The notes under the pieces: model-generated
What the model was told of the DNA's origin: nothing
The model's database searches: none
What the model saw: only the letters and a program-made list of their open reading frames with translations
Sequence record: PV295200.1
Length of the DNA: 64,000 nucleotides
Source: Escherichia phage vB_Eco_BCPEco_001
Direction: 5' to 3' (one strand)
Made by a program: the position numbers and the translations under genes
In this document: in pieces, positions 20,620 to 37,167 of the stretch
How positions within the stretch are numbered: position 1 is the stretch's first letter
Layout of the letters: every line of letters starts with the position of its first letter

Positions 20620-22207
<1,588 letters not shown>

Positions 22208-22210
22208 GCT

Positions 22211-22265
22211 GTTTACAAGTCCCTCATGTTGTGTTATAGTAGTCTTACTGACATAACATGAGGAC
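22211..22265 (+). repeat. promoter-early stem-loop (PeSL-like) cassette, copy 1
   Basis: GTTTACA-17 nt-TATAGT promoter inside inverted repeat CCTCATGTT...AACATGAGG; right arm contains the GAGGA Shine-Dalgarno of alc; 53/55 identical to copy at 36793. Confidence 0.6.
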
Positions 22266-22268
22266 TTT

Positions 22269-22775
22269 ATGATGGATTTACAACTTATTACTACTGAAAT
22301 GGTCGTTGAAGCATACGGTGATACTACAGATGGGATTTCTGTATTCAAAGGAAATCGTCGAGTTGGATATATCACCGATCTTAAGAAAGATTTAGCTAAG
22401 CAAGTCAAGCGGAAAACGACCATTAAAGAATATCGAAATCGTCGTCTTGAGCAAGCCCGTGATATGCTTCCTGATGCGGTTGAAGAGATGAAAGTCTTTT
22501 TAGAAAATCAACTTGCTAAGTATGATTGTGAAGTGTTCATTAATCAGACTCAACCTAATGTTCATATCAATAGTTGTAAATGCTATATCATCGTTAATCC
22601 TTTGACTGGAAAGCATCGTCTTGGAATTAGTAATCCAAATCGTAGTGCATCGGATATGGCAGAAGATGTTGAGGCATGCTTTAAAATTTCTAAATCTCCA
22701 GCTGAACATCATATTTTAATTAACGGTCTTTCTCAAGACGATATTGTAGAGGTTATTAAAACTTTATGCATGTAA
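22269..22775 (+). CDS. alc: Alc, inhibitor of host transcription
   Basis: MMDLQLITTEMVVEAYGDTTDG...; ~167 aa; start may be the second ATG (22272). Confidence 0.8.
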   Translation: MMDLQLITTEMVVEAYGDTTDGISVFKGNRRVGYITDLKKDLAKQVKRKTTIKEYRNRRLEQARDMLPDAVEEMKVFLENQLAKYDCEVFINQTQPNVHINSCKCYIIVNPLTGKHRLGISNPNRSASDMAEDVEACFKISKSPAEHHILINGLSQDDIVEVIKTLCM

Positions 22776-23119
22776 GTAATTTTACAGCTGGATTGCTATT
22801 ACTTGTAATAGCATTTGGCGGAACATCTATTATTTTAAAAAATAAGGTAGAAAGATTAGAAACATCAGTTACTGAAATTACAAAAACGGCCAATGAAAAC
22901 GCCTTAGCATTAAATAATTTGCGAATTCAGTATAATTATATTGATGCGATGAATAATAAAAATCGTGAGGCAATTGCTGCTATTGAGCGTGAAAATGAAA
23001 AACTGCGCAAAGATGCAAAGAAGGCGGATGTGGTGGCTCATAAGCCAGGATTGGTTGAAAAACAAATCAACAACTCCTTCAACAAGTTCGCAGAAGACAT
23101 CCAGGACCTTTCTAAATGA
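22766..23119 (+). CDS. pseT.3: i-spanin (inner-membrane spanin subunit)
   Basis: 117 aa with N-terminal transmembrane helix (FTAGLLLLVIAFGGTSIIL) then coiled-coil-like region; immediately precedes a lipoprotein ORF. Confidence 0.7.
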   Translation: MHVSNFTAGLLLLVIAFGGTSIILKNKVERLETSVTEITKTANENALALNNLRIQYNYIDAMNNKNREAIAAIERENEKLRKDAKKADVVAHKPGLVEKQINNSFNKFAEDIQDLSK

Positions 23120-23415
23120 TTAAACTATCAGCAGTAATATTATCTATTGGTCTTCTAGTTGGTTGTTCGACAAAGCCTCTAGAAGTAAAGAAAGAAACAG
23201 TTCATCCTAATTGGCCTGTGCAAATAAAGTCATATGATGAAGCTAAACTATCTTGGCAAGTTAAAGTTATCGATGGTAAAGCTTGGGTAGGTATGCCATT
23301 TGAAGATTCCCAGGAATTTCGTATTTGGCTTAATGATGTAAAACGATATGTACATGACCAAAAAACTATGATATGTTATTATCGTCAAGAGCTAAAAGAG
23401 GATAAATGTAAATGA
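23116..23415 (+). CDS. pseT.2: o-spanin (outer-membrane lipoprotein spanin subunit)
   Basis: 99 aa; signal peptide with lipobox LLVGC (MIKLSAVILSIGLLVGCSTKP). Confidence 0.7.
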   Translation: MIKLSAVILSIGLLVGCSTKPLEVKKETVHPNWPVQIKSYDEAKLSWQVKVIDGKAWVGMPFEDSQEFRIWLNDVKRYVHDQKTMICYYRQELKEDKCK

Positions 23416-23638
23416 TTTCATGTCATCAATTTGAACATCTCAAAGGATTGATTTATGAATCTGAGATGGCTGCAATGATTTATGGACGCCAGATTCAACG
23501 ATTAGAATCTTTGCCTCCAACTAATGATGTTTTATTAGCTCAATCTCGGGCTAATCTTAAAAATGAATACCAAAATAAGTGGGGTAAAGCATCTAAAGAC
23601 CTGCATGATTATATTCAATCATTGGTTGAGAAAAATAA

Positions 23639-23642
<4 letters not shown>
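23412..23642 (+). CDS. hypothetical protein
   Basis: 76-aa ORF translationally coupled to neighbours. Confidence 0.5.
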
Positions 23643-24864
<1,222 letters not shown>

Positions 24865-24928
24865 TGGCTTTGCACCATGAAACTTGGGATATTATTAATT
24901 GGCTTGAAGAAAATTATGTGAGGTAAAT

Positions 24929-25204
24929 ATGTTTCCGACTTACTCTAAAATCGTAGAAGTAGTGTTTAGCCAAATTATCGCTAATAATATGTTTGAAAAG
25001 CTTGATAACGCAGCCGAGCTTCGAATCCATGCTCAAGTGACTCATGTATTGAATACTTTGCTTCCAGACCAGGTGGATTCTGTTGCCATCACGTTGTATC
25101 CAGGTTCCGCGCATATCATTGTCGTATTTGGTCTTGATGCTGAGCTAGTCATCAAAGGCGATATTCGCTTTGAATCACAGACATCAGAATTCAAAGCAAT
25201 TTAA
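24929..25204 (+). CDS. hypothetical protein
   Basis: 91-aa ORF. Confidence 0.45.
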   Translation: MFPTYSKIVEVVFSQIIANNMFEKLDNAAELRIHAQVTHVLNTLLPDQVDSVAITLYPGSAHIIVVFGLDAELVIKGDIRFESQTSEFKAI

Positions 25205-25206
25205 TA

Positions 25207-25245
25207 GTTTACTTTACGGTAGAGTTGTGATATTATAGCTCTACC
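25207..25245 (+). promoter_or_regulatory. early promoter embedded in inverted repeat (PeSL-like)
   Basis: GTTTAC, spacer, TATTAT; arms GGTAGAG / CTCTACC flank the -10. Confidence 0.45.
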
Positions 25246-25266
25246 AAAACAAATGAGGAAATTGAA

Positions 25267-25797
25267 ATGAGCGAATGGTTTGAAGAAGATAAGGTTTATC
25301 GCTTTAAAGCTGGATATAAAGATATTTTTAATGAAACTTGCGGGGCTAATAAACGAATTGCCCAGTTTATTGGGGAAAATTCATTTAAAGTAAAAATTGA
25401 CCCTGCAAAGAATGTTATTAGCATTAAACGCGAAATTGATGACTGCTGGTATAAAGCTATTGATGTAATGGGCGAATCCTATAAAGATAGCCCGTTATTT
25501 TCAATTGCTTATATGTTAGAATATTCTTTTTTCGAAGAAGTTCAAAAAGATGATTCTGTCAGTAAATTTGAAATTAAAGCTGATAAAGAAATTAAGTGGA
25601 AAGTAGTAGGTATTACTGGTTGTATGTTTTATATCTATGCTCAAACTGATACGAAGGAAGAAGCTAAAAAGAAAGCTCTAGAATATCTTGAAGAGTATGA
25701 AGAAGGTCCGGTAATGATTACTCAAGATGCTGAATTAGTTTCTGTCAAATTAGTTAAAAACGTTGAAAGTAAGGAGCTGGGATCAACATGCTACTAA
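25267..25797 (+). CDS. hypothetical protein
   Basis: 176-aa ORF with GAGGA upstream, downstream of an early promoter-like element. Confidence 0.5.
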   Translation: MSEWFEEDKVYRFKAGYKDIFNETCGANKRIAQFIGENSFKVKIDPAKNVISIKREIDDCWYKAIDVMGESYKDSPLFSIAYMLEYSFFEEVQKDDSVSKFEIKADKEIKWKVVGITGCMFYIYAQTDTKEEAKKKALEYLEEYEEGPVMITQDAELVSVKLVKNVESKELGSTCY

Positions 25798-26027
25798 GTG
25801 AAAAACCAATCACTGTTAAAGAATTCCAAGAAAAAGTTAAACTATTTGCACAGGAATTAGTAAATAAGGTTTCTGAACGATTTCCTGAAACATCGGTTCG
25901 TGTTATTACCGAAACTCCTCGTTCAGTATTAGTAATTGTGAATCCAGGTGATGGCGATCAAATATCGCATCTTAAACTGGATTTTGATGGATTAGTTGAA
26001 GCACAAAGGGTGTATGGCGTACTATGA
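25788..26027 (+). CDS. hypothetical protein
   Basis: 79-aa ORF. Confidence 0.5.
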   Translation: MLLSEKPITVKEFQEKVKLFAQELVNKVSERFPETSVRVITETPRSVLVIVNPGDGDQISHLKLDFDGLVEAQRVYGVL

Positions 26028-26362
26028 TGAATTTAACTGATATAATTGATAATTGTCTTGAAAATGATACTGGCGATCATAGAGCGCTTGATTCTGAAAC
26101 AGCAAAGTTCATTAGAATAACTTTAATGAATGATACTCTGGTGAATAGTATTCATCCTTCTGTGTATGATGCTATTATTGTGACGAAGTATCCAGTTGAG
26201 CTTCACAAAAAGATGACTGGCGCAGTTTTTATTGATAAGAAAAACCGCTTTAAAGATGGGCAGAATATAATTAGTTCTGTTATTAAAAGTATAACTAAAC
26301 TTCGTCACGAAATTTATCGTGTTGAAACTGCTAAATCTGCTTATCTGGTGATTATGAAATGA
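26024..26362 (+). CDS. hypothetical protein
   Basis: 112-aa ORF. Confidence 0.5.
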   Translation: MMNLTDIIDNCLENDTGDHRALDSETAKFIRITLMNDTLVNSIHPSVYDAIIVTKYPVELHKKMTGAVFIDKKNRFKDGQNIISSVIKSITKLRHEIYRVETAKSAYLVIMK

Positions 26363-26940
26363 AAGCGAGTACAGTACTTCAAATTGCATATTTAGTATCG
26401 CAGGAATCAAAATGTTGCTCCTGGAAGGTAGGAGCAGTAATTGAAAAGAATGGACGTATTATTTCTACTGGGTATAATGGTTCACCCGCAGGGGGTGTGA
26501 ACTGTTGTGATTATGCTGCTGAGCAAGGTTGGTTGTTGAATAAGCCTAAACATACTATCATTCAAGGTCATAAGCCTGAATTCGTATCATTTGGTTCAAC
26601 TGATCGTTTTGTCTTGGCGAAAGAACATCGTAATGCTCACTCAGAATGGTCATCTAAAAATGAAATTCATGCTGAACTAAATGCAATTTTGTTTGCTGCA
26701 CGAAATGGTTCTTCTATTGAAGGTGCTACTATGTATGTAACACTTTCTCCTTGTCCAGATTGTGCAAAAGCGATAGCTCAATCTGGAATTAAAAAACTGG
26801 TTTATTGCGAAACATATGATAAGAATAAACCTGGCTGGGATGATATTCTGCGAAATGCAGGTATTGAAGTGTTCAATGTTCCTAAGAAAAACTTGAATAA
26901 GTTAAACTGGGAAAATATCAACGAATTCTGTGGTGAATAA
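26359..26940 (+). CDS. cd: dCMP deaminase
   Basis: 193 aa; cytidine/deoxycytidylate deaminase zinc motifs HAELNA and SPCPDCAKAI. Confidence 0.9.
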   Translation: MKASTVLQIAYLVSQESKCCSWKVGAVIEKNGRIISTGYNGSPAGGVNCCDYAAEQGWLLNKPKHTIIQGHKPEFVSFGSTDRFVLAKEHRNAHSEWSSKNEIHAELNAILFAARNGSSIEGATMYVTLSPCPDCAKAIAQSGIKKLVYCETYDKNKPGWDDILRNAGIEVFNVPKKNLNKLNWENINEFCGE

Positions 26941-27176
26941 TGAAATTTCGTTTGGTAAAGCTCACAGCAATTAGTTCTTATTCTAACGAGAACATCTCAT
27001 TTGCTGTAGAGTATAAGAAATATTTTTTCTCTAAATGGAAACAGTATTATAAAACTGATTGGACTAGTATTGATAGACCATATAGTTGGAAATCTGATTT
27101 AGAAAAATGCCAAAAATTACTTTCCACCCTTAAAGAACGTGGAACAACTCATATTAAAACTGTAATAGGTAAATAA
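26940..27176 (+). CDS. hypothetical protein
   Basis: 78-aa ORF. Confidence 0.5.
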   Translation: MKFRLVKLTAISSYSNENISFAVEYKKYFFSKWKQYYKTDWTSIDRPYSWKSDLEKCQKLLSTLKERGTTHIKTVIGK

Positions 27177-27485
27177 ATGAAACTGACAACTGAGCAGAAA
27201 GTAGCAATTCGTGAAATTTTGAAAACTAAATTGTCCATGGGTGTTTCAAACATAGTTTTCGAAAAGTCTGATGGTACTATTCGTACTATGAAAGGTACTC
27301 GTGATGCAGACTTTATGCCAACCATGCAAACCGGTAAATTGACTGAATCTACTCGGAAAGAATCTACTGACATGATTCCAGTATTTGATGTTGAACTTGG
27401 TGCATGGCGAGGTTTTTCTATTGACAAATTAATTTCTGTTAATGGTATGAAAGTTGAGCATTTACTCCAATTTATTGGTAAATAA
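27177..27485 (+). CDS. hypothetical protein
   Basis: 102-aa ORF. Confidence 0.5.
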   Translation: MKLTTEQKVAIREILKTKLSMGVSNIVFEKSDGTIRTMKGTRDADFMPTMQTGKLTESTRKESTDMIPVFDVELGAWRGFSIDKLISVNGMKVEHLLQFIGK

Positions 27486-27511
27486 ATGCTTTAAGAATTA
27501 TTTGTTATTAT
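27484..27511 (+). promoter_or_regulatory. MotA-type middle promoter for gene 31
   Basis: AAATGCTTTA box, 12-nt gap, TATTAT, ~30 nt before ATG. Confidence 0.5.
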
Positions 27512-27541
27512 TAATTCATCTGTTAACAAAAAGGAAAAACG

Positions 27542-27877
27542 ATGTCTGAAGTACAACAGCTACCAATTCGTGCTGTCGGTGAATATGTTATTTTAGTTTC
27601 TGAACCTGCACAAGCCGGTGATGAAGAAGTTACAGAATCAGGACTTATTATTGGTAAACGTGTTCAAGGTGAAGTTCCTGAACTGTGTGTAGTTCACTCT
27701 GTCGGTCCTGATGTTCCTGAAGGTTTCTGCGAAGTTGGCGATTTGACTTCTCTTCCAGTTGGTCAAATTCGAAATGTTCCGCATCCTTTTGTAGCTCTGG
27801 GTCTTAAGCAGCCAAAAGAAATTAAACAAAAATTCGTTACTTGTCACTATAAAGCTATTCCATGTCTTTATAAGTGA
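27542..27877 (+). CDS. 31: head assembly co-chaperonin (GroES analogue) gp31
   Basis: 111-aa [27 protein letters not shown]...; same length as T4 gp31. Confidence 0.9.
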
Positions 27878-27885
27878 TATAAATA
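27878..27885 (+). promoter_or_regulatory. late promoter motif (TATAAATA) upstream of rIII
   Basis: Exact TATAAATA immediately after gene 31 stop. Confidence 0.4.
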
Positions 27886-28025
27886 ATAATATGAATTAGG
27901 TGTCGGAATAATAAGTTAACCGAACAATTCTATGTGGTAGTCTACAACTGAGAGATCTGTCGAAAGAAGATGAAATTCAGAAGAACGTGACTACCGAGTT
28001 TTAATCTCTAACGAGAATTTTTTAA

Positions 28026-28274
28026 ATGATTAAACAATTACAACACGCTCTTGAACTGCAACGAAACGCATGGAATAATGGTCACGAAAACTATGGCGCA
28101 TCTATTGATGTTGAAGCCGAAGCTCTTGAAATCCTGCGTTATTTCAAACATCTGAATCCTGCTCAAACTGCATTAGCTGCTGAGCTTCAGGAAAAAGATG
28201 AACTTAAATATGCTAAGCCTTTGGCTTCTGCTGCACGAAAAGCAGTTCGTCACTTTGTGGTAACACTGAAGTAA
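28026..28274 (+). CDS. rIII: rIII lysis inhibition accessory protein
   Basis: 82-aa ORF MIKQLQHALELQRNAWNNGHENYG...; same length and position as T4 rIII. Confidence 0.8.
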   Translation: MIKQLQHALELQRNAWNNGHENYGASIDVEAEALEILRYFKHLNPAQTALAAELQEKDELKYAKPLASAARKAVRHFVVTLK

Positions 28275-28393
28275 TTATGTTGACGAGGTTTATGGTTATC
28301 CTGTCGGTAAATATTCAAAACCTAAGTACCCCTTGAGGGCTTGCGCAGGCAATGCCAATAAGTCCTGCATTTTCATTTAAAAGAGAATTTATA

Positions 28394-28570
28394 ATGGCAA
28401 AACAAGCTAAAGCAAAGAAAGCAGTTGAAAAGAAAGTTGGTGATTCTAAACGCGCTGGTTACAAGCGTGGGTCTAACTCTCGTATCAATCAAACTGTTGA
28501 GAAGATCATGCGCCGAGCACGTGCGGTTCTTCGAGATGATGCTTCTCGTTTTGGTAAGCAGAAAGCATAA
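28394..28570 (+). CDS. hypothetical small basic protein
   Basis: MAKQAKAKKAVEKKVGDSKRAGYKRG...; ORF track start 28352 also possible; followed by a terminator. Confidence 0.4.
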   Translation: MAKQAKAKKAVEKKVGDSKRAGYKRGSNSRINQTVEKIMRRARAVLRDDASRFGKQKA

Positions 28571-28575
28571 GTTGA

Positions 28576-28604
28576 GGACTCCTTCGGGAGTCCTTTTTTA
28601 TTTT
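28576..28604 (+). terminator. rho-independent terminator
   Basis: GGACTCC-TTCG-GGAGTCC followed by TTTTTTATTTT. Confidence 0.7.
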
Positions 28605-28623
28605 CCAAAGATTGCACAAAGTT

Positions 28624-28656
28624 GTTTACAGTACGATTTCTTTGTGATAGTATTAT
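28624..28656 (+). promoter_or_regulatory. sigma70-type early promoter
   Basis: GTTTACA, spacer, TGATAGTATTAT; followed by GGGC-TTCG-GCCC hairpin and GAGGAAA. Confidence 0.45.
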
Positions 28657-28705
28657 CTTATACAAACAAAAGAAAAGGGCTTCGGCCCCTATTGAGGAAA
28701 ATGTT

Positions 28706-28993
28706 ATGTTTATGACTACTTATTTTGATACCCGCAAAAATTTCTGTGAAGTGGTTTTCTCAAAGGCACCTAAAGACCTTCCTGCACATTTGCAACCTAC
28801 TAGCGAATCGATTAAAAACTACGTTGATGTGGTTTGTCCTTTAGAGTTTCGTACTGTAAATGGGCGCGATACTTTAGCTATCACTAAACTCAATCGCGAA
28901 ATTGACATTGACCCTTTAATTGCGCGCGAAATTAATAGTTCTGATATTAATGGCGGTAACGTTAAATCGCACGGTTTTCAGATGAGGTTCTAA
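28706..28993 (+). CDS. hypothetical protein
   Basis: ATG 28706 after GAGGAAA; ORF track start 28622 would overlap the predicted promoter. Confidence 0.45.
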   Translation: MFMTTYFDTRKNFCEVVFSKAPKDLPAHLQPTSESIKNYVDVVCPLEFRTVNGRDTLAITKLNREIDIDPLIAREINSSDINGGNVKSHGFQMRF

Positions 28994-29190
28994 TGAAATT
29001 CTTTTTAGGTCAAACTGTTGAATTAAAGGGAGTTGGTATACCTGGATTAATTTCTAAGGTTCTACCTCCATTTAAATGGAGTGGTATTCAAATAAAAGAG
29101 GCTTATATTGTTTCCTGGGTAGATGGAAATGAAGACCTTCGTATGGGTGATGAATTATCTCCTATTTACGGATTAAAGGAATTAGTATGA
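28993..29190 (+). CDS. hypothetical protein
   Basis: 65-aa ORF. Confidence 0.45.
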   Translation: MKFFLGQTVELKGVGIPGLISKVLPPFKWSGIQIKEAYIVSWVDGNEDLRMGDELSPIYGLKELV

Positions 29191-29393
29191 ATATAATTAA
29201 TAAGATTTTTGGAATTCAGTACATTAAGGTTACATATAAAGTAACAGATAAAAATCCGTATACCGATGAACACGAAGAACCACAAGTTAAGTCTATTATA
29301 TTAGAAAAAGGCAGTGACTGGCCAGTTGAATTTCGTCTTCCTTGCTATGGTCATTGGGCTGATGTTGAAATTATAAGCATTGAAAATGTCTGA
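29187..29393 (+). CDS. hypothetical protein
   Basis: 68-aa ORF. Confidence 0.45.
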   Translation: MNIINKIFGIQYIKVTYKVTDKNPYTDEHEEPQVKSIILEKGSDWPVEFRLPCYGHWADVEIISIENV

Positions 29394-29844
29394 GTTAGAG
29401 ATTAGAAGCAATTTTAGGTGGCCATCATGCGCATTAAGTAATTTCGCCCATTGGCCTTTCGTCATGGATGGTATTCAATTTGGAGGTCTCGAAGGATTCC
29501 TCCAAGGATGTAAGGTGAAAAATGTTGAACAACAACGTCGTATATTTGGGTTATCCGGGCTTGCCGCCCAACAAGCTGGAAGGTCTTATGCTAGAGCTCA
29601 GGACCGTGGGACCCTCTTCTGGCTTGGAGTTCCGTTTTCAAGATACTCCCCGGCGTGGAAAGAATTATACACAAATGCATATTTTGAAGCAGCGATCCAA
29701 AACAAGGGCTTTCGTGATGCATTACAAGCCTCGAAAGGAAAAGTTTTGAAGCATAGCATGGCTAGTGGTCTAACAAAAGATGATACAATACTAACCGAAG
29801 CTGAATTTATTGATGTGTTAAACCTATTAAGAGACTCTCTATGA
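29380..29844 (+). CDS. NADAR/YbiA-like domain protein (DUF1768-like)
   Basis: 154 aa; CALSNFAHWPFVMDGIQFGGLEGFLQGCKVK resembles the NADAR signature LSNF..PF..dG..F.s.E..fQ..K. Confidence 0.5.
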   Translation: MKMSELEIRSNFRWPSCALSNFAHWPFVMDGIQFGGLEGFLQGCKVKNVEQQRRIFGLSGLAAQQAGRSYARAQDRGTLFWLGVPFSRYSPAWKELYTNAYFEAAIQNKGFRDALQASKGKVLKHSMASGLTKDDTILTEAEFIDVLNLLRDSL

Positions 29845-30677
29845 AGCCTACTATTTTAACTGATATTGATGGAGTATGTTTAAGCTGGCAATCAGGCCTT
29901 CCTTATTTTGCTCAGAAATATAATCTTCCGTTAGAACATATTTTAAAAATGATCCAAGATGAAAAATTTATTTCACCTGGTAAACTCTTTAATTGTGATG
30001 AAGAACTTGGCGTTAAGCTAATTGAAAAATACAATCGATCAGATTTTATTCGTTACTTGTCTCCATATAAAGATGCTCTGTGTGTAATTAACAAATTAAA
30101 AGAAGATTATAATTTTGTAGCTGTTACAGCATTGGGTGATTCTATTGACGCTCTGTTGAATCGTCAATTTAATTTGAATGCTCTTTTTCCTGGTGCCTTC
30201 TCAGAAGTAATGATGTGTGGTCATGATTCTTCAAAAGAAGAGTTGTTCAAAAAGGCAAAAGAGAAATATAACGTAATTTGTTATATTGACGATCTCGCTC
30301 ACCACTGCGATCATGCGAGTGAAATATTACGTGTTCCTGTGTATTGGATGGCTCGAGGGGAACGTGACAGTATTCCAAAAACTGCTCAGCGAGTTTATAC
30401 ATGGAATGATGTAGAAAATAAGCTTTTTTCACCGAAGGAAAATAAAGAAAGTTTTGATAGTGAAAAAGCTATAAAAGATGCAATCGAGAAGATGATTAAA
30501 AACGATTCTTTTCCTTGGAACACTACCTGGAGAACTCCTGGATTTAATCCTTATAATCTATATCATCCATATCAGACGCATCCGTTTCAGACATGGAACT
30601 ATATTAAACCTGGCGGCATAGAGTATTTGTATAATAGACCTACTTGTGGTGATAATATTTTCCAAGGAGCATTCTAA
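29841..30677 (+). CDS. HAD-superfamily hydrolase-like protein (5'(3')-deoxyribonucleotidase-like)
   Basis: N-terminal ILTDIDGVC (DxDG motif I) and later YIDDLAHH (DD motif) typical of HAD phosphatases. Confidence 0.5.
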   Translation: MKPTILTDIDGVCLSWQSGLPYFAQKYNLPLEHILKMIQDEKFISPGKLFNCDEELGVKLIEKYNRSDFIRYLSPYKDALCVINKLKEDYNFVAVTALGDSIDALLNRQFNLNALFPGAFSEVMMCGHDSSKEELFKKAKEKYNVICYIDDLAHHCDHASEILRVPVYWMARGERDSIPKTAQRVYTWNDVENKLFSPKENKESFDSEKAIKDAIEKMIKNDSFPWNTTWRTPGFNPYNLYHPYQTHPFQTWNYIKPGGIEYLYNRPTCGDNIFQGAF

Positions 30678-30946
30678 TGTTTGTTGTTCACACTATTTAT
30701 GAAAATGAAGGTAATACTACACGTGATTACGGTCACGTAAATCAATTTTTTAGATGCAATCCAGAATTCCGAGCTCAAAAAGACGAACGAATTTTTAAAA
30801 AATGTGTAGAGCAAGGTTTCATTTACGTCAAGCATTGGATGCAAGGAAATAAAGTTAGAACCACGTACCACAGGTCTTTGACTGAGCTTAATGATGAATT
30901 GATTTATAATAGAGCTGTAAACCAAACTCTAAAGGATGAACAATGA
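30677..30946 (+). CDS. hypothetical protein
   Basis: 89-aa ORF immediately upstream of DNA ligase. Confidence 0.5.
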   Translation: MFVVHTIYENEGNTTRDYGHVNQFFRCNPEFRAQKDERIFKKCVEQGFIYVKHWMQGNKVRTTYHRSLTELNDELIYNRAVNQTLKDEQ

Positions 30947-32406
30947 TTCTTAAAATTCTGAACGAAATAGCATCTATTGGTTCAACTAAACAGAAGCAAG
31001 CAATTCTTGAAAAGAATAAAGATAATGAATTGCTTAAACGAGTATATCGTCTGACTTATTCTCGTGGGTTGCAGTATTATATCAAGAAATGGCCTAAACC
31101 TGGTATTGCTACCCAGAGTTTTGGAATGTTGACTCTTACCGATATGCTTGACTTCATTGAATTCACATTAGCTACTCGGAAATTGACTGGAAATGCGGCA
31201 ATTGAAGAATTAACTGGATATATCACCGATGGTAAAAAAGATGATGTTGAAGTTTTGCGTCGAGTGATGATGCGAGACCTTGAATGTGGTGCTTCAGTAT
31301 CTATTGCAAACAAAGTTTGGCCAGGTTTAATTCCTGAACAACCTCAAATGCTTGCAAGTTCTTATGATGAAAAAGGCATTAATAAGAATATCAAATTTCC
31401 AGCTTTTGCCCAGTTAAAAGCTGATGGAGCTCGGTGCTTTGCCGAAGTCAGAGGTGATGAATTAGATGATGTTCGTCTTTTATCACGAGCCGGTAATGAA
31501 TATCTAGGATTAGATCTTCTTAAGGAAGAGTTAATCAAAATGACCGCTGAAGCCCGCCAGATTCATCCAGAAGGTGTGTTGATTGATGGCGAATTGGTAT
31601 ACCATGAGCAAGTTAAAAAGGAGCCAGAAGGCCTAGATTTTCTTTTTGATGCTCATCCTGAAAACAGTAAAGTTAAAGAATTCGCCGAAGTAGCTGAATC
31701 ACGTACTGCATCTAATGGAATCGCCAATAAATCTTTAAAGGGAACTATTTCAGAAAAAGAAGCACAATGCATGAAGTTTCAGGTCTGGGATTATGTCCCG
31801 TTGGTAGAAATATATGGTCTTCCAGCATTTCGTTTGAAGTATGATGTACGTTTTTCTAAACTAGAACAAATGACATCAGGCTATGATAAAGTAATTTTAA
31901 TTGAAAACCAGGTAGTAAATAACCTAGATGAAGCTAAGGTAATTTATAAAAAGTATATTGACCAAGGTCTTGAAGGTATTATTCTCAAAAATATCGATGG
32001 ATTATGGGAAAATGCTCGTTCAAAAAATCTCTATAAATTTAAAGAAGTAATTGATGTTGATTTAAAAATTGTAGGAATTTATCCTCACCGTAAAGACCCT
32101 ACTAAAGCAGGTGGATTTATTCTTGAGTCAGAGTGTGGAAAAATTAAGGTAAATGCTGGTTCAGGCTTAAAAGATAAAGCCGGTGTAAAATCACATGAAC
32201 TTGACCGTACTCGCATTATGGAAAACCAAAATTATTATATTGGAAAAATTCTAGAGTGCGAATGCAACGGTTGGTTAAAATCCGATGGCCGCACTGATTA
32301 CGTTAAATTATTTCTTCCGATTGCGATTCGTTTACGCGAAGATAAAACTAAAGCTAATACGTTCGAAGATGTATTTGGTGATTTTCATGAGGTAACTGGT
32401 TTATGA
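30943..32406 (+). CDS. 30: ATP-dependent DNA ligase
   Basis: 487 aa, same length as T4 ligase; adenylation motif region FAQLKADGARCF. Confidence 0.95.
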   Translation: MILKILNEIASIGSTKQKQAILEKNKDNELLKRVYRLTYSRGLQYYIKKWPKPGIATQSFGMLTLTDMLDFIEFTLATRKLTGNAAIEELTGYITDGKKDDVEVLRRVMMRDLECGASVSIANKVWPGLIPEQPQMLASSYDEKGINKNIKFPAFAQLKADGARCFAEVRGDELDDVRLLSRAGNEYLGLDLLKEELIKMTAEARQIHPEGVLIDGELVYHEQVKKEPEGLDFLFDAHPENSKVKEFAEVAESRTASNGIANKSLKGTISEKEAQCMKFQVWDYVPLVEIYGLPAFRLKYDVRFSKLEQMTSGYDKVILIENQVVNNLDEAKVIYKKYIDQGLEGIILKNIDGLWENARSKNLYKFKEVIDVDLKIVGIYPHRKDPTKAGGFILESECGKIKVNAGSGLKDKAGVKSHELDRTRIMENQNYYIGKILECECNGWLKSDGRTDYVKLFLPIAIRLREDKTKANTFEDVFGDFHEVTGL

Positions 32407-32591
32407 AAGCTTACTTAGAAACAATTGTCGTGGCTCAAAAAGAAGGTGGAGATGTTTCTACTTCTGTATCACAAATCATGATTGAATTTATCGATGCATA
32501 TGCTTATAATAAATTCACAGAAACTTTTGATGCTTATGAAAAAGGTCCAAAGTTTGAAATATATCGTACTCTCTTACCTATAGATTATTAA
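32403..32591 (+). CDS. hypothetical protein
   Basis: 62-aa ORF overlapping ligase stop; followed by hairpin terminator. Confidence 0.4.
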   Translation: MKAYLETIVVAQKEGGDVSTSVSQIMIEFIDAYAYNKFTETFDAYEKGPKFEIYRTLLPIDY

Positions 32592-32607
32592 AGGCCTTCG
32601 GGCCTTT
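32590..32607 (+). terminator. hairpin terminator after gene 30 operon
   Basis: AAAGGCC-TTCG-GGCCTTT followed by AATTTTA. Confidence 0.55.
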
Positions 32608-32612
32608 AATTT

Positions 32613-32620
32613 TATAAATA
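32613..32620 (+). promoter_or_regulatory. late promoter (TATAAATA) for alt
   Basis: Exact TATAAATA 20 nt upstream of alt ATG, followed by AGAGAGGA. Confidence 0.65.
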
Positions 32621-32643
32621 GAATAAACACTAGAGAGGATATG

Positions 32644-34731
32644 ATGGAACTCATTACAGAATTATTTGACGAAGATACTACTCTTCCGATTACAAACTTA
32701 AATCCAAAGAAGAAAATACCACAAATTTTTTCAGTTCATGTTGATGATGCAATTGAACAACCAGGCTTTCGTTTATGTACCTATACATCTGGAGGTGATA
32801 CTAATCGCGATTTAAAGATGGGCGATAAAATGATGCATATTGTTCCTTTTACATTAACTGCTAAAGGTTCAATTGCTAAATTGAAAGGTCTTGGTCCAAG
32901 CCCAATTAATTATATCAATTCAGTTTTTACTGTTGCAATGCAAACAATGCGTCAATATAAAATTGATGCCTGTATGCTCCGTATTCTTAAGTCTAAAACC
33001 GCTGGTCAAGCTCGACAAATTCAAGTTATTGCTGATAGACTTATCCGTAGTCGTTCAGGTGGCAGATACGTCCTTCTTAAGGAACTCTGGGATTATGATA
33101 AAAAGTATGCATATATTCTTATACATCGCAAAAATGTATCACTAGAAGACATTCCAGGAGTTCCGGAAATTAGTACTGAGCTCTTTACTAAAGTTGAATC
33201 GAAGGTCGGTGATGTTTATATCAATAAAGATACTGGAGCTCAAGTAACTAAAAATGAGGCAATTGCAGCATCTATTGCACAAGAAAATGATAAACGTTCT
33301 GACCAAGCTGTAATTGTTAAAGTTAAAATTTCACGTAGAGCAATTGCGCAAAGTCAATCGTTAGAGTCTTCTAGATTTGAAAGTGAATTATTCCAGAAGT
33401 ATGAATCTACCGCAGCTAATTTCAATAAACCTGCTACCGCTCCTTTAATTCCCGAAGCAGAAGAAATGAAGCTTGGAATTAATTCATTAGCTTCTAAAAC
33501 TAAGGCAGCAAAAATTATTGCCGAAGGAACTGCGAATGAACTTCACTATGACTATAAATTCTTTTCAAAAAGTGAGGTTGATGAAGTTTCTGAAAAAATT
33601 AAAGATGTAATTCTTAACGCAATCAAAAATGAACCAACTACTTCAATAAAATGTTTAGAGAAATACGCAGCAGCTGTTAATAAATTCTTTGAAGAATATA
33701 AAGATAATTGGCTTGATAAACATAATAAAACTCGTAAAGGGCAACCAGATGAAGTCTGGGGAGAAATAACTAAAAATGCCTGGAATGCAGCAAAAACTAA
33801 ATTCCTCAAACGAATGATTTATAGTTTTTCTGGAATTGGTGCTGGTCCAATGATTGATATTACTATTGCCCGTGATGGTTCTAAATATACTCCATCACAA
33901 AAGCGCGGCATTAGAGAATATTGTGGCTCAGGATATACAGACATTAATAATCTTCTTTTAGGTCGTTACAATCCAGAACGATATGATGTAATGAGTGAAA
34001 AAGAAATTGAATCTGCTATAAATAATTTAGATTCAGCTTTTGAAAATGGTGACCGTATACCGGAAGGCATTACAGTTTATCGTGCTCAAAGTATGACTGC
34101 TCCTATATACGAAGCACTAGTTAAAAATAAAGTGTTCTATTTCAGAAATTTTGTATCTACTTCTTTAACTCCTATCATTTTTGGACGTTTTGGAATTACA
34201 CATGCTGGTATTGGTCTTTTAGAACCAGAAGCTCGCAATGAATTAACAGTTGATAAAAATGAAGAAGGAATAACTATTAATCCAAACGAAATAAGAGCGT
34301 ATAAAGAAAATCCTGAATACGTTAAAGTTCAAATAGGATGGGCAATTGATGGAGCTCATAAAGTTAATGTTGTATATCCAGGAAGTCTCGGAATAGCAAC
34401 AGAAGCTGAAGTTATTCTACCGCGCGGATTAATGGTTAAAGTTAATAAAATAACTGATGCTTCTAATAATGACGGAACAACATCTAATAATACAAAACTC
34501 ATTCAAGCTGAAGTTATGACCACAGAAGAACTCACCGAATCGGTAATCTATGACGGAGACCATTTAATGGAAACTGGTGAATTGGTTACAATGACAGGTG
34601 ATATAGAAGATAGAGTTGACTTTGCATCATTTGTTTCATCAAATGTTAAACAGAAAGTAGAATCATCTCTTGGAATTATTGCGTCTTGCATAGATATTAC
34701 AAACATGCCTTACAAGTTCGTTCAAGGATAA
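32644..34731 (+). CDS. alt: Alt-family mono-ADP-ribosyltransferase (head-packaged, copy 1)
   Basis: MELITELFDEDTTLPITNL...; C-terminal ART triad: VYRAQ (Arg), FVSTSL (Ser-Thr-Ser), ATEAEVILPRG (Glu-x-Glu); late promoter TATAAATA upstream; ORF track start 32641. Confidence 0.85.
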   Translation: MELITELFDEDTTLPITNLNPKKKIPQIFSVHVDDAIEQPGFRLCTYTSGGDTNRDLKMGDKMMHIVPFTLTAKGSIAKLKGLGPSPINYINSVFTVAMQTMRQYKIDACMLRILKSKTAGQARQIQVIADRLIRSRSGGRYVLLKELWDYDKKYAYILIHRKNVSLEDIPGVPEISTELFTKVESKVGDVYINKDTGAQVTKNEAIAASIAQENDKRSDQAVIVKVKISRRAIAQSQSLESSRFESELFQKYESTAANFNKPATAPLIPEAEEMKLGINSLASKTKAAKIIAEGTANELHYDYKFFSKSEVDEVSEKIKDVILNAIKNEPTTSIKCLEKYAAAVNKFFEEYKDNWLDKHNKTRKGQPDEVWGEITKNAWNAAKTKFLKRMIYSFSGIGAGPMIDITIARDGSKYTPSQKRGIREYCGSGYTDINNLLLGRYNPERYDVMSEKEIESAINNLDSAFENGDRIPEGITVYRAQSMTAPIYEALVKNKVFYFRNFVSTSLTPIIFGRFGITHAGIGLLEPEARNELTVDKNEEGITINPNEIRAYKENPEYVKVQIGWAIDGAHKVNVVYPGSLGIATEAEVILPRGLMVKVNKITDASNNDGTTSNNTKLIQAEVMTTEELTESVIYDGDHLMETGELVTMTGDIEDRVDFASFVSSNVKQKVESSLGIIASCIDITNMPYKFVQG

Positions 34732-34734
34732 ATC

Positions 34735-36792
34735 ATGGAACTTATTACAGAATTATTTGACGGCGCTTCGGCGCCGGTTGTTAACTTAAATCCTAAGCAT
34801 AAAATACCACAAATTTTTGCTATCCAAACCGGCGAAGAAAGCGTGCTTCCTGGATTTAGATTTTGTACATACACCTCTGGTGGTGATACGAATAAAAACG
34901 TTAAGCCAGGCGATAAAATGATGCATATCGTAATGATAGGTGTCAACGAGAAATTATCGCTGGTTAAGCTTAGAAACTTGGGTGGAAATCCAATTGGCGT
35001 CATTAATGCTGTTTTTGATACTGCTCTTCAAACAATGAAGCAGTATAAAATCGACGCATGCTTATTCCGCGTACTAAAAAGTAAAACAAATGGCGCAGCT
35101 CGTCAAATGCAAGTTATTGCTGACCGTTTAGTACGTACTAAAGGAGCAGGTCGATATGTTCTTTTAAAGGAAATCTGGGACTATGATAAAAAGTATGCAT
35201 ATATTATGGTTTACCGTAAAAATGCCAATTTAGAAGACATTCCAGGTGTACCTCCTATTTCAACTGAGTTATTCACAAAAGTTGAATCAAAGGTCGGTGA
35301 TGTTTATGTAGATGTTAAAACAGGTGATGCTGTTCCTAAAGCTGTCGCTGTTGCTGCTTCTATTGCTTTAGAAAATGATAAGCGCACGGATCAAGCTGTT
35401 ATTCAGAAAACTAAAATTAGTCGTCGATTAGCAGCACAAGCTCAATATTCTACTGTTGATGCTTCACTTCAGGGTGATAGCTTCGCTGCTAAGAAATATC
35501 AAGAGTTTGAATCTAAAGTTCCGGTATATAAAGCAGAAGGACCAATGAACTCTGGCGTTATTCAGATTGGTTCAAACTTCAACAAAGGAGCTATCGGTGG
35601 TATGAGAAGTGCTTCTCGTTTTAAATCTAGCGATTATGAACTAGAAAACTTCCGAAATCATATTGCATTAGCCCATGCACGTTTACGTGATCCATCTATC
35701 AAGTTGCAGAGCGATATAACATATCAAGGTTCTCAAGAATATTTAAAGAATAAAGAATTCTTTGATTATAAAACTGATAAAATTTTAAGCGATCTTGCTG
35801 ACATTAATATTTCTAATAGCTTTGATGTTATTAAGAAAATTATCAATGATTTGGTTAAAGGTTCTAATGCTACGCCAGATGAAAAGACAGCTATTATTCA
35901 ATTTGTCATGAATGGCATTTATAAATTGATTAATGAATCTGCTGCTCAGGCATATGAATATGCAAGTACTGAAGTAACTCCAAAAGGACTGACTCAGGCT
36001 GAGTCTGATGTAATTGAAGATTATTGTGCAGATTCATATGTTGAAATGAACTCGTTCCTTTTGGGTAAACCAGATTCTACCCGTGAAGAATATATGGAAC
36101 GAGCTATTAAGCACATCGAGACGTTGGATTCTGCCTTTGCCAAAGGATCAGTTCTTCCTCCAGGAACTACACTTTACCGTGGACAAGAAGTTACCTTTAA
36201 AACTTTGCGTCATAACATTGAAAACAAAATGTTCTATTTCAAGAACTTCGTATCCACATCGCTTAAACCAAATATCTTCGGTGAGCATGGTAAAAACTAT
36301 ATGGCTCTAGATGATTCCGGCGCAGTATTTTCTGGTGAAGGAGAAGGTTCCGTTGATGCAGAAGATTTGATGCATATGGGTAGTCATTCTACATATGCTA
36401 ATGAAGATGCTGAAACTAGCGTGGGTATGGTAATTAAAGGAGCTGAGCGAATCAAAGTTATCGTTCCAGGTCATTTATCAGGATTTCCATCAGAAGCTGA
36501 AGTTATTCTACCGCGTGGAATTTTACTGAAGATTAATAAAGTAAGTACGTACTTTATGAAAGAAACTGCTTATAACAAGTATCTAATCGAAGGTACAATC
36601 GTTCCTCCTTCTGAACAATTAGAAGAATCAGTATATGATGGCGACCATCTAATGGAAACTGGTGAAGTTCGTCCAATGGTTGGATTTAATCAATTCCTTG
36701 TAGAAGAATCAAAAGAAGAGGAAAACGAAGTTTCTCAAATCTTGGCTTCTTTGGTTAACATCAACGGAATGTCTAAAAAGTTCAAAATGTAG
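34735..36792 (+). CDS. Alt-family mono-ADP-ribosyltransferase paralog (copy 2)
   Basis: 685 aa MELITELFDGASAPVVNL...; homologous to copy 1 throughout; ART motifs LYRGQ, FVSTSL, PSEAEVILPRG retained; divergent central region. Confidence 0.8.
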   Translation: MELITELFDGASAPVVNLNPKHKIPQIFAIQTGEESVLPGFRFCTYTSGGDTNKNVKPGDKMMHIVMIGVNEKLSLVKLRNLGGNPIGVINAVFDTALQTMKQYKIDACLFRVLKSKTNGAARQMQVIADRLVRTKGAGRYVLLKEIWDYDKKYAYIMVYRKNANLEDIPGVPPISTELFTKVESKVGDVYVDVKTGDAVPKAVAVAASIALENDKRTDQAVIQKTKISRRLAAQAQYSTVDASLQGDSFAAKKYQEFESKVPVYKAEGPMNSGVIQIGSNFNKGAIGGMRSASRFKSSDYELENFRNHIALAHARLRDPSIKLQSDITYQGSQEYLKNKEFFDYKTDKILSDLADINISNSFDVIKKIINDLVKGSNATPDEKTAIIQFVMNGIYKLINESAAQAYEYASTEVTPKGLTQAESDVIEDYCADSYVEMNSFLLGKPDSTREEYMERAIKHIETLDSAFAKGSVLPPGTTLYRGQEVTFKTLRHNIENKMFYFKNFVSTSLKPNIFGEHGKNYMALDDSGAVFSGEGEGSVDAEDLMHMGSHSTYANEDAETSVGMVIKGAERIKVIVPGHLSGFPSEAEVILPRGILLKINKVSTYFMKETAYNKYLIEGTIVPPSEQLEESVYDGDHLMETGEVRPMVGFNQFLVEESKEEENEVSQILASLVNINGMSKKFKM

Positions 36793-36847
36793 TTTACAAG
36801 TTCCTTATGTTGTGTTATAGTAGTCTTACTGACATAACATGAGGAAC
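36793..36847 (+). repeat. promoter-early stem-loop (PeSL-like) cassette, copy 2
   Basis: Same 55-bp element as 22211-22265 with 2 substitutions; right arm again supplies GAGGA for the downstream ORF. Confidence 0.6.
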
Positions 36848-36852
36848 ACAAA

Positions 36853-37143: not shown

Positions 37144-37149
37144 AAATAT

Positions 37150-37167
37150 GGGGACCGAAAGGTCCCC
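37150..37167. terminator. bidirectional hairpin terminator between convergent ORF 36853-37143 and gene 54
   Basis: GGGGACC-GAAA-GGTCCCC with T-rich tracts on both strands. Confidence 0.65.

What the first reader, a model, noticed from the sequence alone, without database searches (positions are those of the whole stretch)
22211..36847. Near-identical 55-bp promoter/stem-loop cassette present twice, ~14.6 kb apart
GTTTACAAGTCCCTCATGTTGTGTTATAGTAGTCTTACTGACATAACATGAGGA at 22211-22265 and the same sequence with 2 substitutions at 36793-36847. Each has an early-promoter layout (GTTTACA, 17 nt, TATAGT) inside an inverted repeat whose right arm carries the GAGGA Shine-Dalgarno of the downstream gene (alc; 96-aa ORF). 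Read-through transcripts would sequester the RBS while promoter-initiated transcripts would not. Such direct repeats match the promoter-early stem-loop (PeSL) cassettes proposed to drive modular shuffling in T4-type phages, and here bracket the alc-to-alt segment.
Basis: partly seen in the sequence, partly recalled or inferred. Interest (0 to 1): 0.5.

Follow-up and report, generated by a model that had tools for sequence, protein, structure and literature searches.

The report
Twin early-promoter hairpin cassettes in T4-like phage
Two near-identical 54-base cassettes in a T4-like phage each combine a strong early promoter with a hairpin predicted to hide the next gene's ribosome-binding site on transcripts arriving from upstream; the hairpin is conserved by compensatory change in front of alc across related phage genera and was copied to a second gene in T4's own genus, but the pair shows no sign of shuffling genes.

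Summary
The repeat is real: 54 nt at 22211-22264 and 36792-36845, 2 mismatches, none expected by chance. The window is a Tequatrovirus (T4-like). Copy 1 lies between rnlA and alc; copy 2 between the second alt paralogue and alt.-3. Each copy is a T4-type early promoter (TTTACA, 17 nt, TGn-TATAGT). Its spacer is the 5' arm of a 21-bp hairpin (-25 kcal/mol) whose 3' arm covers the GAGGA Shine-Dalgarno. The predicted start lies inside the hairpin, so promoter-initiated RNA is open.

At alc this design is old: 22 of 30 distinct leaders from other genera pair the SD with the spacer using different arm sequences (arm-swap test, 0 of 100,000 permutations). At alt.-3 it occurs only in Tequatrovirus, so the cassette was copied from alc. 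A two-site variant at both loci (G28, PP01, UFV09) and a 32-nt exchange in VR5 indicate further conversions.

The shuffling reading fails. About 499 relatives carry both copies at the same loci, the interval holds essential genes 30 and 31, and the one extra copy (G28) has junctions outside the cassette.

Verdict: promoter-gated translation, known in T4 for late promoters, in a PeSL-like layout. Modest novelty; function untested.

The parts
22211..22264 (+). Cassette copy 1, in the rnlA-alc intergenic region
   Evidence: Exact match to the quoted 54-mer; family D7
22212..22240 (+). Early (sigma-70-type) promoter of copy 1: -35 TTTACA at 22212-22217, 17-nt spacer, TG at 22232-22233, -10 TATAGT at 22235-22240. 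Predicted +1 is near A22247.
   Evidence: 10 of 12 matches, TG present. The +1 is inferred from spacing only. A 'promoter' is annotated at the homologous site in phage Lutter.
22217..22267 (+). Hairpin of copy 1 in read-through RNA. The 5' arm is the promoter spacer, the loop region holds the -10 and +1, and the 3' arm includes SD GAGGA (22260-22264).
   Evidence: -24.8 kcal/mol, z -4.9. RNA starting at 22247 folds at -1.8 kcal/mol, no better than shuffles.
22269..22775 (+). alc (inhibitor of host transcription). The T4 annotation starts at the second ATG (22272).
36792..36845 (+). Cassette copy 2, between the second alt paralogue and alt.-3. The alt stop codon TAG overlaps the G of GTTTACA.
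   Evidence: 2 mismatches to copy 1
36793..36821 (+). Early promoter of copy 2: -35 at 36793-36798, TG at 36813-36814, -10 at 36816-36821. Predicted +1 is near 36828.
   Evidence: In T4, alt.-3 RNA is 'early' while the upstream alt.-1, alt.-2 and alt RNAs are 'middle' (PMC9697503 supplement).
36800..36847 (+). Hairpin of copy 2. The 3' arm includes SD GAGGA (36841-36845). The C->T at cassette position 11 turns a C/A mismatch into a U-A pair with this locus's own downstream sequence.
   Evidence: -25.7 kcal/mol, z -5.7. RNA starting at 36828 is unstructured. T4's copy 2 carries the mismatch (-23.0).
36853..37143 (+). alt.-3 homologue (96 aa), a dispensable early protein
   Evidence: PMC11618068
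37148..37169 (.). Bidirectional terminator-like hairpin between alt.-3 and gene 54. It ends the alt.-3 transcription unit.
32613..32620 (+). Late-promoter motif TATAAATA upstream of the first alt paralogue. It is the likely source of late read-through into cassette 2.
   Evidence: No + strand terminator-like site between it and 37148.
32641..36792 (+). Two tandem full-length alt paralogues (32641-34731 and 34735-36792), the genes upstream of copy 2
21047..22207 (+). rnlA (RNA ligase 1) ORF, upstream of copy 1. The true start is probably internal to this ORF.

Best explanation
Each cassette is a T4-type early promoter built into an RBS-occluding hairpin, which makes translation depend on which promoter produced the RNA. 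Host sigma-70 RNA polymerase starts about 7 nt after the -10, inside the hairpin. RNA made from the cassette's own promoter therefore lacks the 5' arm (the promoter spacer, which acts as an anti-SD) and has a free Shine-Dalgarno, so alc or alt.-3 is translated immediately after infection. RNA arriving from upstream (rnlA, or the late-transcribed alt genes) contains both arms and folds into a 21-bp hairpin that buries GAGGA, so the downstream gene stays untranslated on middle or late read-through transcripts. The result is early-only synthesis of Alc and Alt.-3. The design is ancestral at alc across Tevenvirinae. In the Tequatrovirus ancestor the alt.-3 promoter region was overwritten with the alc cassette by ectopic gene conversion between shared ends (GTTTACAA ... 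ACATGAGGA), with occasional later conversions. Shown here: the repeat, the promoter consensus, the folds, covariation at alc, the phylogenetic distribution and the shared haplotypes. Inferred: the start site, the translational block, and the direction and mechanism of transfer.
For: Both copies have promoter consensus with an extended -10. The hairpins fold at -24.8 and -25.7 kcal/mol (z about -5), while RNAs from the predicted +1 are unstructured. Outside Tequatrovirus, 22 of 30 distinct alc leaders pair the SD with the spacer using different arm sequences, for example TCTCCGTTT/AAACGGAGA, CTCCATTTCGTT/AACGAAATGGAG and CCTCGTTTGTT/AACAAACGAGG. In the arm-swap test over 18 arm families, own arms average -14.6 against -7.8 kcal/mol for swapped arms, the own partner ranks first in 11 of 18, and 0 of 100,000 permutations are as good. 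In T4, alc and alt.-3 are early RNA and early protein, alt, alt.-1 and alt.-2 RNA is middle, and rnlA and alt proteins are late (PMC9697503 supplements). A late-promoter motif lies upstream of alt with no + strand terminator before 37148. For the transfer: 0 of 9 distinct non-Tequatrovirus alt.-3 leaders show SD-spacer pairing, and within-genome shared stretches are 6-12 nt in 14 of 15 outgroup genomes against 52-54 of 54 in Tequatrovirus. The double variant TATAATAATC occurs at both loci in G28, PP01 and UFV09 but only at locus 2 in ECO95. VR5's alc and alt.-3 leaders share 32 identical nt that are absent from other Dhakavirus alc leaders. The mechanism is established in T4 for late promoters at e, soc, 49 and I-TevI (PMC3014915).
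Against: No 5'-end mapping or translation data were available for either site, and I found no T4 start-site dataset. Mosigvirus and three other arm families lack the SD pairing at alc, and in Tegunavirus and L049 the hairpin stops just 5' of the SD, so SD occlusion is not universal. The structure is more stable on the sense strand only in Tequatrovirus (7 of 15 families overall), so an RNA-level role is not proven by asymmetry. Column-based covariation failed because the helix register shifts between clades. The window-type alleles at the two loci assort almost independently (overlap of 3 records against about 1.4 expected), so conversion is rare. rnlA RNA is itself classed as early, so the timing contrast at copy 1 is weaker than at copy 2.
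Confidence: 0.6

Rival explanations
1. PeSL recombination cassettes: the two direct repeats mainly serve as substrates for homologous recombination that excises, inserts or shuffles the genes between or beside them, for example through mini-circles.
For: The layout fits the broad PeSL definition, and PeSLs were reported for the T4/PST pair. The two cassettes have exchanged sequence. The neighbouring alt copy number varies among genera: one in LH01, two in the window, three in WG01, remnants in T4.
Against: About 499 records carry roughly two copies at the same loci. No junction maps to a cassette. G28's extra copy comes from a duplication with end points inside rnlA and alc. T4's loss within the second alt paralogue keeps that gene's 3' end, so it is internal and not cassette-mediated. 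A deletion between the copies would remove essential genes 30 and 31. A 14.6-kb duplication would exceed T4's terminal redundancy (about 3% of the genome, my own knowledge of T4).
Confidence: 0.12
2. The hairpin acts on the upstream transcript rather than on translation. It would be a transcription attenuator or terminator, or a 3'-end stabiliser, for rnlA and alt mRNAs (the function proposed for PeSL stem-loops). SD overlap would then be incidental.
For: It is a very stable hairpin directly after the upstream stop codon. One RB49 PeSL stem-loop terminated transcription in a reporter (PMC2839356). In Tegunavirus and L049 the hairpin does not include the SD.
Against: No U tract follows either stem, and neither is listed as terminator-like. 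In 22 of 30 outgroup alc leaders the 3' arm sits exactly on the SD although the arm sequences differ, which a terminator would not need. The two roles are not mutually exclusive.
Confidence: 0.2
3. DNA-level role: the inverted repeat forms a cruciform or changes promoter melting, tuning promoter strength or marking a site for a DNA-binding or recombination protein.
For: The arms flank the -10 and +1. Outside Tequatrovirus the pairs are mostly Watson-Crick, so either strand or duplex extrusion is possible. The other early promoters at 11941 and 25207 have hairpins over the -10 that leave the SD free.
Against: In Tequatrovirus 2-3 G.U pairs make the sense strand 5-10 kcal/mol more stable than the antisense strand. 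The consistent placement of the 3' arm on the SD points to RNA. No protein partner is known.
Confidence: 0.05

Closest known systems
T4 RBS-sequestering leader hairpins with an internal promoter (genes e, soc, 49, I-TevI; reviewed in PMC3014915)
   Same: The SD is buried in a helix on long upstream-initiated transcripts. A promoter sits within the region encoding the 5' strand, so its own transcripts lack that strand and are translated. The outcome is promoter-specific, time-gated translation.
   Different: Those cases use late promoters (TATAAATA) and give late-only translation. Here the promoter is a sigma-70 early promoter whose 17-nt spacer is itself the anti-SD, which predicts early-only translation. 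The known cases are shown experimentally; this one is not.
PeSL (promoter-early stem-loop) cassettes of T4-type phages (Arbiol et al. 2010, PMC2839356; Comeau et al. 2014, PMC4122927)
   Same: An intergenic cassette running from the upstream stop codon through a sigma-70-like promoter with an overlapping stem-loop to the SD and ATG of the next gene. It is repeated in the genome, and the copies exchange sequence.
   Different: Only two copies of this sequence exist per genome. The stem reaches and covers the SD. There is no U tract or G/C-rich stem. No indels or shuffling are associated with it in about 499 relatives. The exchange seen is gene conversion of the cassette itself, not movement of flanking ORFs.
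T4 early promoters (Pe; UP/-35/TGn/-10 type, Hinton 2010, PMC2988021)
   Same: GTTTAC -35, TGn extended -10, position directly upstream of early genes, and early RNA class of the downstream genes.
   Different: Most Pe are described by their polymerase-contact elements only. Here the spacer and leader carry an additional conserved RNA structure.
Early-promoter/stem-loop elements of the T-even internal-protein loci (Repoila et al. 1994, as discussed in PMC2839356)
   Same: T4-type early promoters with AT-rich stem-loops, proposed to mediate exchange between related sequences.
   Different: Those flank highly variable IP genes and are linked to gene replacement. The present pair flanks a conserved, partly essential block.

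Membership tests
PeSL cassette | Intergenic unit running from the upstream stop codon through a sigma-70-like -35/-10 to the SD and start codon of the next gene | tested here: met
   rnlA's stop TAA lies 4 nt before GTTTACA, and alt's stop TAG overlaps it. SD and ATG follow 12-19 nt after the predicted +1.
PeSL cassette | Stable stem-loop within or next to the promoter (between -35 and -10, overlapping a box, or flanking) | tested here: met
   definition from PMC2839356 section 14. Here the stem starts in the spacer, encloses the -10 and, unusually, extends to the SD.
PeSL cassette | The stem-loop works as a transcription terminator or attenuator | not testable with these tools
   In silico only: no U tract, and not flagged as terminator-like.
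PeSL cassette | Many related copies concentrated in hyperplastic regions | tested here: inconclusive
   This sequence has only 2 copies per genome. The window has 6 strong early-type promoters, four with some promoter-overlapping hairpin, but their sequences are otherwise unrelated.
PeSL cassette | Insertions, deletions or replacements between relatives with junctions at the cassettes | tested here: not met
   Both loci are conserved in about 499 genomes, and the G28 duplication and the T4 alt remnant have junctions elsewhere. Only conversion of the cassette itself was seen.
T4 promoter-in-hairpin translational gates (e, soc, 49, I-TevI) | SD and/or AUG paired in a helix on upstream-initiated RNA | tested here: met
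   (5 of 5 SD bases paired with the spacer in both window copies). Prediction only.
T4 promoter-in-hairpin translational gates (e, soc, 49, I-TevI) | The promoter is placed so that its own transcript lacks the 5' strand of the helix | tested here: met
   The predicted +1 (22247 and 36828) lies 3' of the whole left arm. RNAs from there fold at -1.8 and -3.3 kcal/mol. The start site is inferred, not mapped.
T4 promoter-in-hairpin translational gates (e, soc, 49, I-TevI) | The internal promoter is a late (gp55, TATAAATA) promoter | tested here: not met
   No TATAAATA lies in either cassette. The promoter is the sigma-70 early type.
T4 promoter-in-hairpin translational gates (e, soc, 49, I-TevI) | Demonstrated inhibition of translation on long transcripts | not testable with these tools
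   Needs reporter fusions, toeprinting or ribosome profiling.
T4 early promoter (Pe) | GTTTAC-type -35, about 17-nt spacer, TGn extended -10 | tested here: met
   These positions are invariant or nearly so across 34 aligned alc leaders.
T4 early promoter (Pe) | The downstream gene is transcribed immediately after infection | tested here: met
   Literature data for T4 itself: alc and alt.-3 are early RNA and early protein, and the class changes from middle (alt.-2) to early (alt.-3) across copy 2 (PMC9697503 supplements).
T4 early promoter (Pe) | Mapped primary 5' end | not testable with these tools
   No start-site dataset for T4 was found. Miller et al. 2003 is not held.

The most novel reading that the evidence does not exclude
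Placing the anti-Shine-Dalgarno inside the spacer of a strong early promoter is a conserved, selected device that limits Alc synthesis to promoter-proximal immediate-early transcripts throughout the Tevenvirinae. It would be the early-gene mirror image of the lysozyme-type late gate. This promoter-plus-leader module also moves between loci 14 kb apart by ectopic gene conversion: alc to alt.-3 in the Tequatrovirus ancestor, again within Tequatrovirus, and alt.-3 to alc in VR5. A gene's temporal translation programme would then be rewired without touching its coding sequence.
Probability: 0.45. Interest if true: 0.5.

Novelty: new member of a known kind. Interest (0 to 1): 0.35.

Why it matters
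If the gate works as predicted, T4-like phages use one structural trick in both temporal directions. Late promoters inside hairpins give late-only proteins (lysozyme, Soc, endonuclease VII, I-TevI). Early promoters inside hairpins would give early-only proteins (Alc, the shut-off factor for cytosine-DNA transcription, and Alt.-3, whose mutants let T4 escape the CmdTAC defence). That would explain how an early gene can sit directly downstream of genes whose proteins are made late (RnlA, Alt) without a terminator. It would also give phage engineers a compact 54-bp part for expression from its own promoter only. The conversion events show that regulatory cassettes, not only genes, are exchanged within T4-type genomes. 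This refines the PeSL idea: the cassettes recombine with each other, but here the outcome is homogenised regulation rather than gene shuffling. If the gate does not work, these are simply two catalogued-type early promoters with an incidental palindrome.

Tried and rejected
1. RNAalifold on MAFFT alignments of alc leaders gave no consensus, because the helix register shifts by 1 nt between clades. I used an alignment-free arm-swap test instead.
2. A strand-asymmetry test for an RNA versus DNA role is clear only in Tequatrovirus and not general.
3. I tested linkage of the window-type alleles at the two loci as a sign of ongoing homogenisation. There is no real association: 27 and 25 records, overlap 3 including a duplicate deposit, about 1.4 expected. 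Only the rarer double variant is informative.
4. Within-genome against between-genome leader identity in the outgroups shows no excess except in VR5, so recurrent exchange in every genus is rejected.
5. Rfam has no family anywhere in the window.
6. An IMG/VR pattern scan for the loop core returned only 9 loci, too few for population analysis.
7. An alignment-based locus search for Alt.-3 failed, so I used single proteins.
8. Literature: Miller et al. 2003 is not held and no T4 start-site dataset was found. The PeSL papers' figures and supplements listing individual PST/T4 PeSLs are not held, so I could not check whether these two sites were already listed.
9. I considered an intrinsic terminator and rejected it as the main role (no U tract).
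Full report
OBSERVATION. The quoted sequence is 54 nt. It occurs exactly at window 22211-22264 and with two mismatches at 36792-36845, both on the + strand. No match was found in 100 dinucleotide-preserving shuffles, and the repeat finder recovers the same pair 14,581 nt apart. Both copies score 10 of 12 against the sigma-70 consensus (TTTACA, 17 nt, TATAGT) with a TG extended -10, and they are among the best promoter-like sites in 21000-38200.

CONTEXT. The window is a Tequatrovirus. The rnlA-alc region is 99.7% identical to Salmonella phage vB_Sen_BCPSen_003 and 97.6% identical to T4, and the + strand is T4's early-transcription strand. By comparison with annotated T4, copy 1 lies between rnlA (ORF 21047-22207) and alc (22269-22775). 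Copy 2 lies between the second of two tandem alt paralogues (34735-36792) and the alt.-3 homologue (36853-37143). A bidirectional terminator-like hairpin follows at 37148-37169, and then gene 54 on the other strand. T4 itself carries both copies.

ANATOMY. It has a 17-bp lower stem (with one bulged C in copy 1), a 2-nt bulge, a 4-bp upper stem and a GUCU loop. MFE is -24.8 and -25.7 kcal/mol, with z -4.9 and -5.7 and no shuffle folding as well. The 5' arm is the promoter spacer, the -10 and the predicted +1 (about 22247 and 36828) lie at the top, and the 3' arm ends with the GAGGA Shine-Dalgarno. RNAs that begin at the predicted +1 are unstructured: -1.8 and -3.3 kcal/mol, no better than shuffles. 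No U tract follows either stem, and neither is flagged as terminator-like. One of the two substitutions in copy 2 (C->T at position 11) replaces a C/A mismatch, still present in T4's copy 2, with a U-A pair to that locus's own downstream sequence.

DISTRIBUTION. A blastn search with the cassette finds 499 phage records and 997 places, about two per genome, essentially all of them Tequatrovirus. The closest full genome has exactly two. The only record with three (G28) has a roughly 350-bp tandem duplication of rnlA 3' end, cassette and alc 5' end. Its junctions lie inside the two genes, not in the cassette. A deletion between the copies would remove genes 30 (DNA ligase) and 31 (co-chaperonin), which are essential in T4 (plus established T4 genetics).

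THE HAIRPIN AT alc IS ANCIENT AND CO-VARIES. Synteny (rnlA-alc ... alt-alt.-3-gene 54) holds in Dhakavirus, Mosigvirus, Gelderlandvirus, Kanagawavirus, Gaprivervirus, Tegunavirus, Marfavirus and Karamvirus. I collected alc leaders from these records and from 42 IMG/VR loci. All but the Gaprivervirus type keep the layout stop codon, GTTTACA, spacer, TGnTAnnnT, about 20 nt, SD, ATG. In 22 of 30 distinct non-Tequatrovirus leaders the MFE structure pairs the SD with the promoter spacer, although the arm sequences differ completely between clades. Examples are TCTCCGTTT/AAACGGAGA, TCTCCATTTGGTT/AACCAAATGGAGA, CTCCATTTCGTT/AACGAAATGGAG, CCTCGTTTGTT/AACAAACGAGG, TCCTCATCAG/CTGATGAGGA and AACCTCTCATTTT/AAAATGAGAGGTT. 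Three more leaders (Tegunavirus and L049) have a 11-13-bp hairpin around the -10 that ends just 5' of the SD. Five lack it (Mosigvirus, L062, L063, L065). MAFFT and RNAalifold failed because the helix register shifts between clades, so I used an alignment-free test. It computes the duplex energy of each spacer segment with its own leader segment and with those of the other 17 arm families. Own arms average -14.6 kcal/mol and swapped arms -7.8, the own partner ranks first in 11 of 18 families, and none of 100,000 permutations reaches the observed sum. This is strong evidence that the pairing is selected. That the selected property is SD occlusion is an inference from where the 3' arm sits.

THE alt.-3 COPY IS DERIVED. 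Outside Tequatrovirus, 0 of 9 distinct alt.-3 leaders pair the SD with the spacer. They have a small local hairpin inside the spacer (of the type ACCACA-AGGA-TGTGGT) and MFEs of -7 to -13 kcal/mol. In 15 outgroup genomes where both leaders are available, the longest exact stretch shared after GTTTACA is 6-12 nt, with one exception. In Tequatrovirus the two cassettes are 52-54 of 54 identical. The simplest reading is that the alc cassette overwrote the alt.-3 promoter region in the Tequatrovirus stem lineage. The tract would be bounded by sequence the two loci already shared: GTTTACAA on the left and (A)ACATGAGGA on the right, which is the native alt.-3 SD context in the outgroups. Downstream of GAGGA each locus keeps its own sequence.

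FURTHER EXCHANGES. First, a linked double substitution (TATAGTAGTC to TATAATAATC, which gives a consensus -10) is present at both loci in G28, PP01 and UFV09, only at locus 2 in ECO95, and at neither in T4. The same two-site haplotype at two paralogous sites implies at least one more conversion. Second, in Dhakavirus VR5 the alc and alt.-3 leaders share 32 identical nt, from about +1 to the start codon. Six other Dhakavirus genomes have a different alc right half, so this is an independent event in the opposite direction. Conversion is not frequent: the window-type alleles at the two loci (27 and 25 exact-match records) overlap in only 3 records against about 1.4 expected.

EXPRESSION DATA FROM T4. 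In the time-resolved data of Wolfram-Schauerte et al. 2022 (PMC9697503, supplementary files 4 and 6), alc and alt.-3 are early RNA and early protein. alt, alt.-1 and alt.-2 RNAs are middle, Alt protein is late, and RnlA is early RNA and late protein. The change of RNA class across copy 2 fits an active early promoter there. In the window a late-promoter motif (TATAAATA, 32613-32620) follows a terminator hairpin just upstream of the first alt paralogue, and no + strand terminator-like site occurs before 37148. Late alt transcripts should therefore run through cassette 2 and alt.-3, which is the situation where SD occlusion would matter. Alt.-3 is dispensable and of unknown function; C-terminal extension mutants let T4 escape CmdTAC (PMC11618068).

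MECHANISM AND RIVALS. The best-supported model is promoter-gated translation. The cassette's own early transcripts are open and translated, while upstream-initiated transcripts are closed. This is the established T4 mechanism for e, soc, 49 and I-TevI (PMC3014915), but with an early sigma-70 promoter whose spacer doubles as the anti-SD, and it predicts early-only rather than late-only translation. I put this at about 0.6. A terminator, attenuator or 3'-stabiliser role for the hairpin (the PeSL authors' reading) is possible and not exclusive, at about 0.2. It does not explain why the 3' arm tracks the SD, and there is no U tract. A role as recombination cassettes for modular shuffling is poorly supported for this pair, at about 0.12. 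A DNA-level role is least likely, at about 0.05. Strand asymmetry supports RNA only in Tequatrovirus.

COMPARISON WITH KNOWN SYSTEMS. The cassette fits the broad PeSL layout of Arbiol et al. 2010, in which the stem-loop may overlap the -10 and the unit ends in SD plus ATG. The PST/T4 paper found PeSLs by self dot-plots, so this pair may well be among them, but the figure is not held. It behaves like the late-promoter RBS gates but fails their defining late promoter. The 2010 review of T4 translational control does not mention alc or alt.-3, and Rfam has nothing in the window. I could not consult Miller et al. 2003, so prior description of these promoters or of the hairpin cannot be excluded.

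VERDICT. This is a T4-genus-wide pair of early promoter and leader cassettes whose hairpin is an ancient, co-varying feature of the alc leader, copied to alt.-3 by gene conversion. It is not an active shuffling device. Novelty is modest: a new member, and arguably a variant, of known T4 regulatory designs. Interest is 0.35.

Noticed in passing
window 32641-34731 and 34735-36792: There are two full-length tandem alt (ADP-ribosyltransferase) paralogues. T4 has one alt plus the remnants alt.-1 and alt.-2, Dhakavirus WG01 has three, and Mosigvirus LH01 has one. T4's loss is internal to the second paralogue and keeps its 3' end.
   Followed up: partly
L021 (MG867727.1, phage G28) 16640-17075: A roughly 350-bp tandem duplication of rnlA 3' end, cassette and alc 5' fragment creates a third cassette copy. 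The junctions lie inside rnlA and alc.
   Followed up: yes
L017 (KP007362.1, Gaprivervirus VR26) 18996-19300; also L036, L037, L064: An extra alc-like fragment ORF lies between rnlA and alc. It is preceded by a GGGG...CCCC hairpin with a T run (AAGGGGTGTACAAGCCCCTTCTTTCT), which is a classic terminator and looks like an RB49-type PeSL. The full alc there has no GTTTAC promoter.
   Followed up: no
L068 and L069 (KP007359.1, Dhakavirus VR5): The alc and alt.-3 leaders share an identical 32-nt transcribed segment (ACCTTACACAAACATGAGGAGAACATTATGAA) that other Dhakavirus alc leaders lack. This is an independent inter-locus exchange.
   Followed up: yes
alt.-3 leaders of L012, L013, L015, L017, L019, L020; alc leaders of Mosigvirus L013, L048 and of L063, L065: A second recurring promoter design: a small hairpin wholly inside the spacer with a GGA-containing loop (for example ACCACA-AGGA-TGTGGT and AACACCA-AGGA-TGGTGTT), with the SD left free. 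Its function is unknown.
   Followed up: partly
window 11941-12003 and 25207-25269 (+): Two other strong early-type promoters have 12-bp hairpins joining the spacer to the -10/+1 region and leaving the SD free. The promoter at 11209 shows weak SD-spacer pairing. Promoter-overlapping hairpins may be a general feature of T4-type early promoters.
   Followed up: partly
window 37120-37166 and 50931-50977: A 47-nt direct repeat (70% identity) centred on the terminator-like hairpin GGGACCGAAAGGTCCC (family D13). The first copy is the bidirectional terminator between alt.-3 and gene 54.
   Followed up: no
window 29001-29034 vs 36870-36903: A 34-nt stretch with 71% identity links the 5' end of alt.-3 and the start of the ORF at 28993-29190 (the position of T4 30.5), family D17. 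It could be distant paralogy or chance.
   Followed up: no
window 32591-32620: A terminator-like hairpin (AAAGGCCTTCGGGCCTTT plus a T run) is followed immediately by a late-promoter motif TATAAATA upstream of alt. This is a compact terminator-promoter junction on the early strand.
   Followed up: partly
MG010123.1 (record named 'Staphylococcus phage SAJK-IND', 32 kb): This record contains the cassette at 96% identity (H90), which is unexpected for a Staphylococcus phage. Contamination or mislabelling of a T4-like sequence is likely.
   Followed up: no
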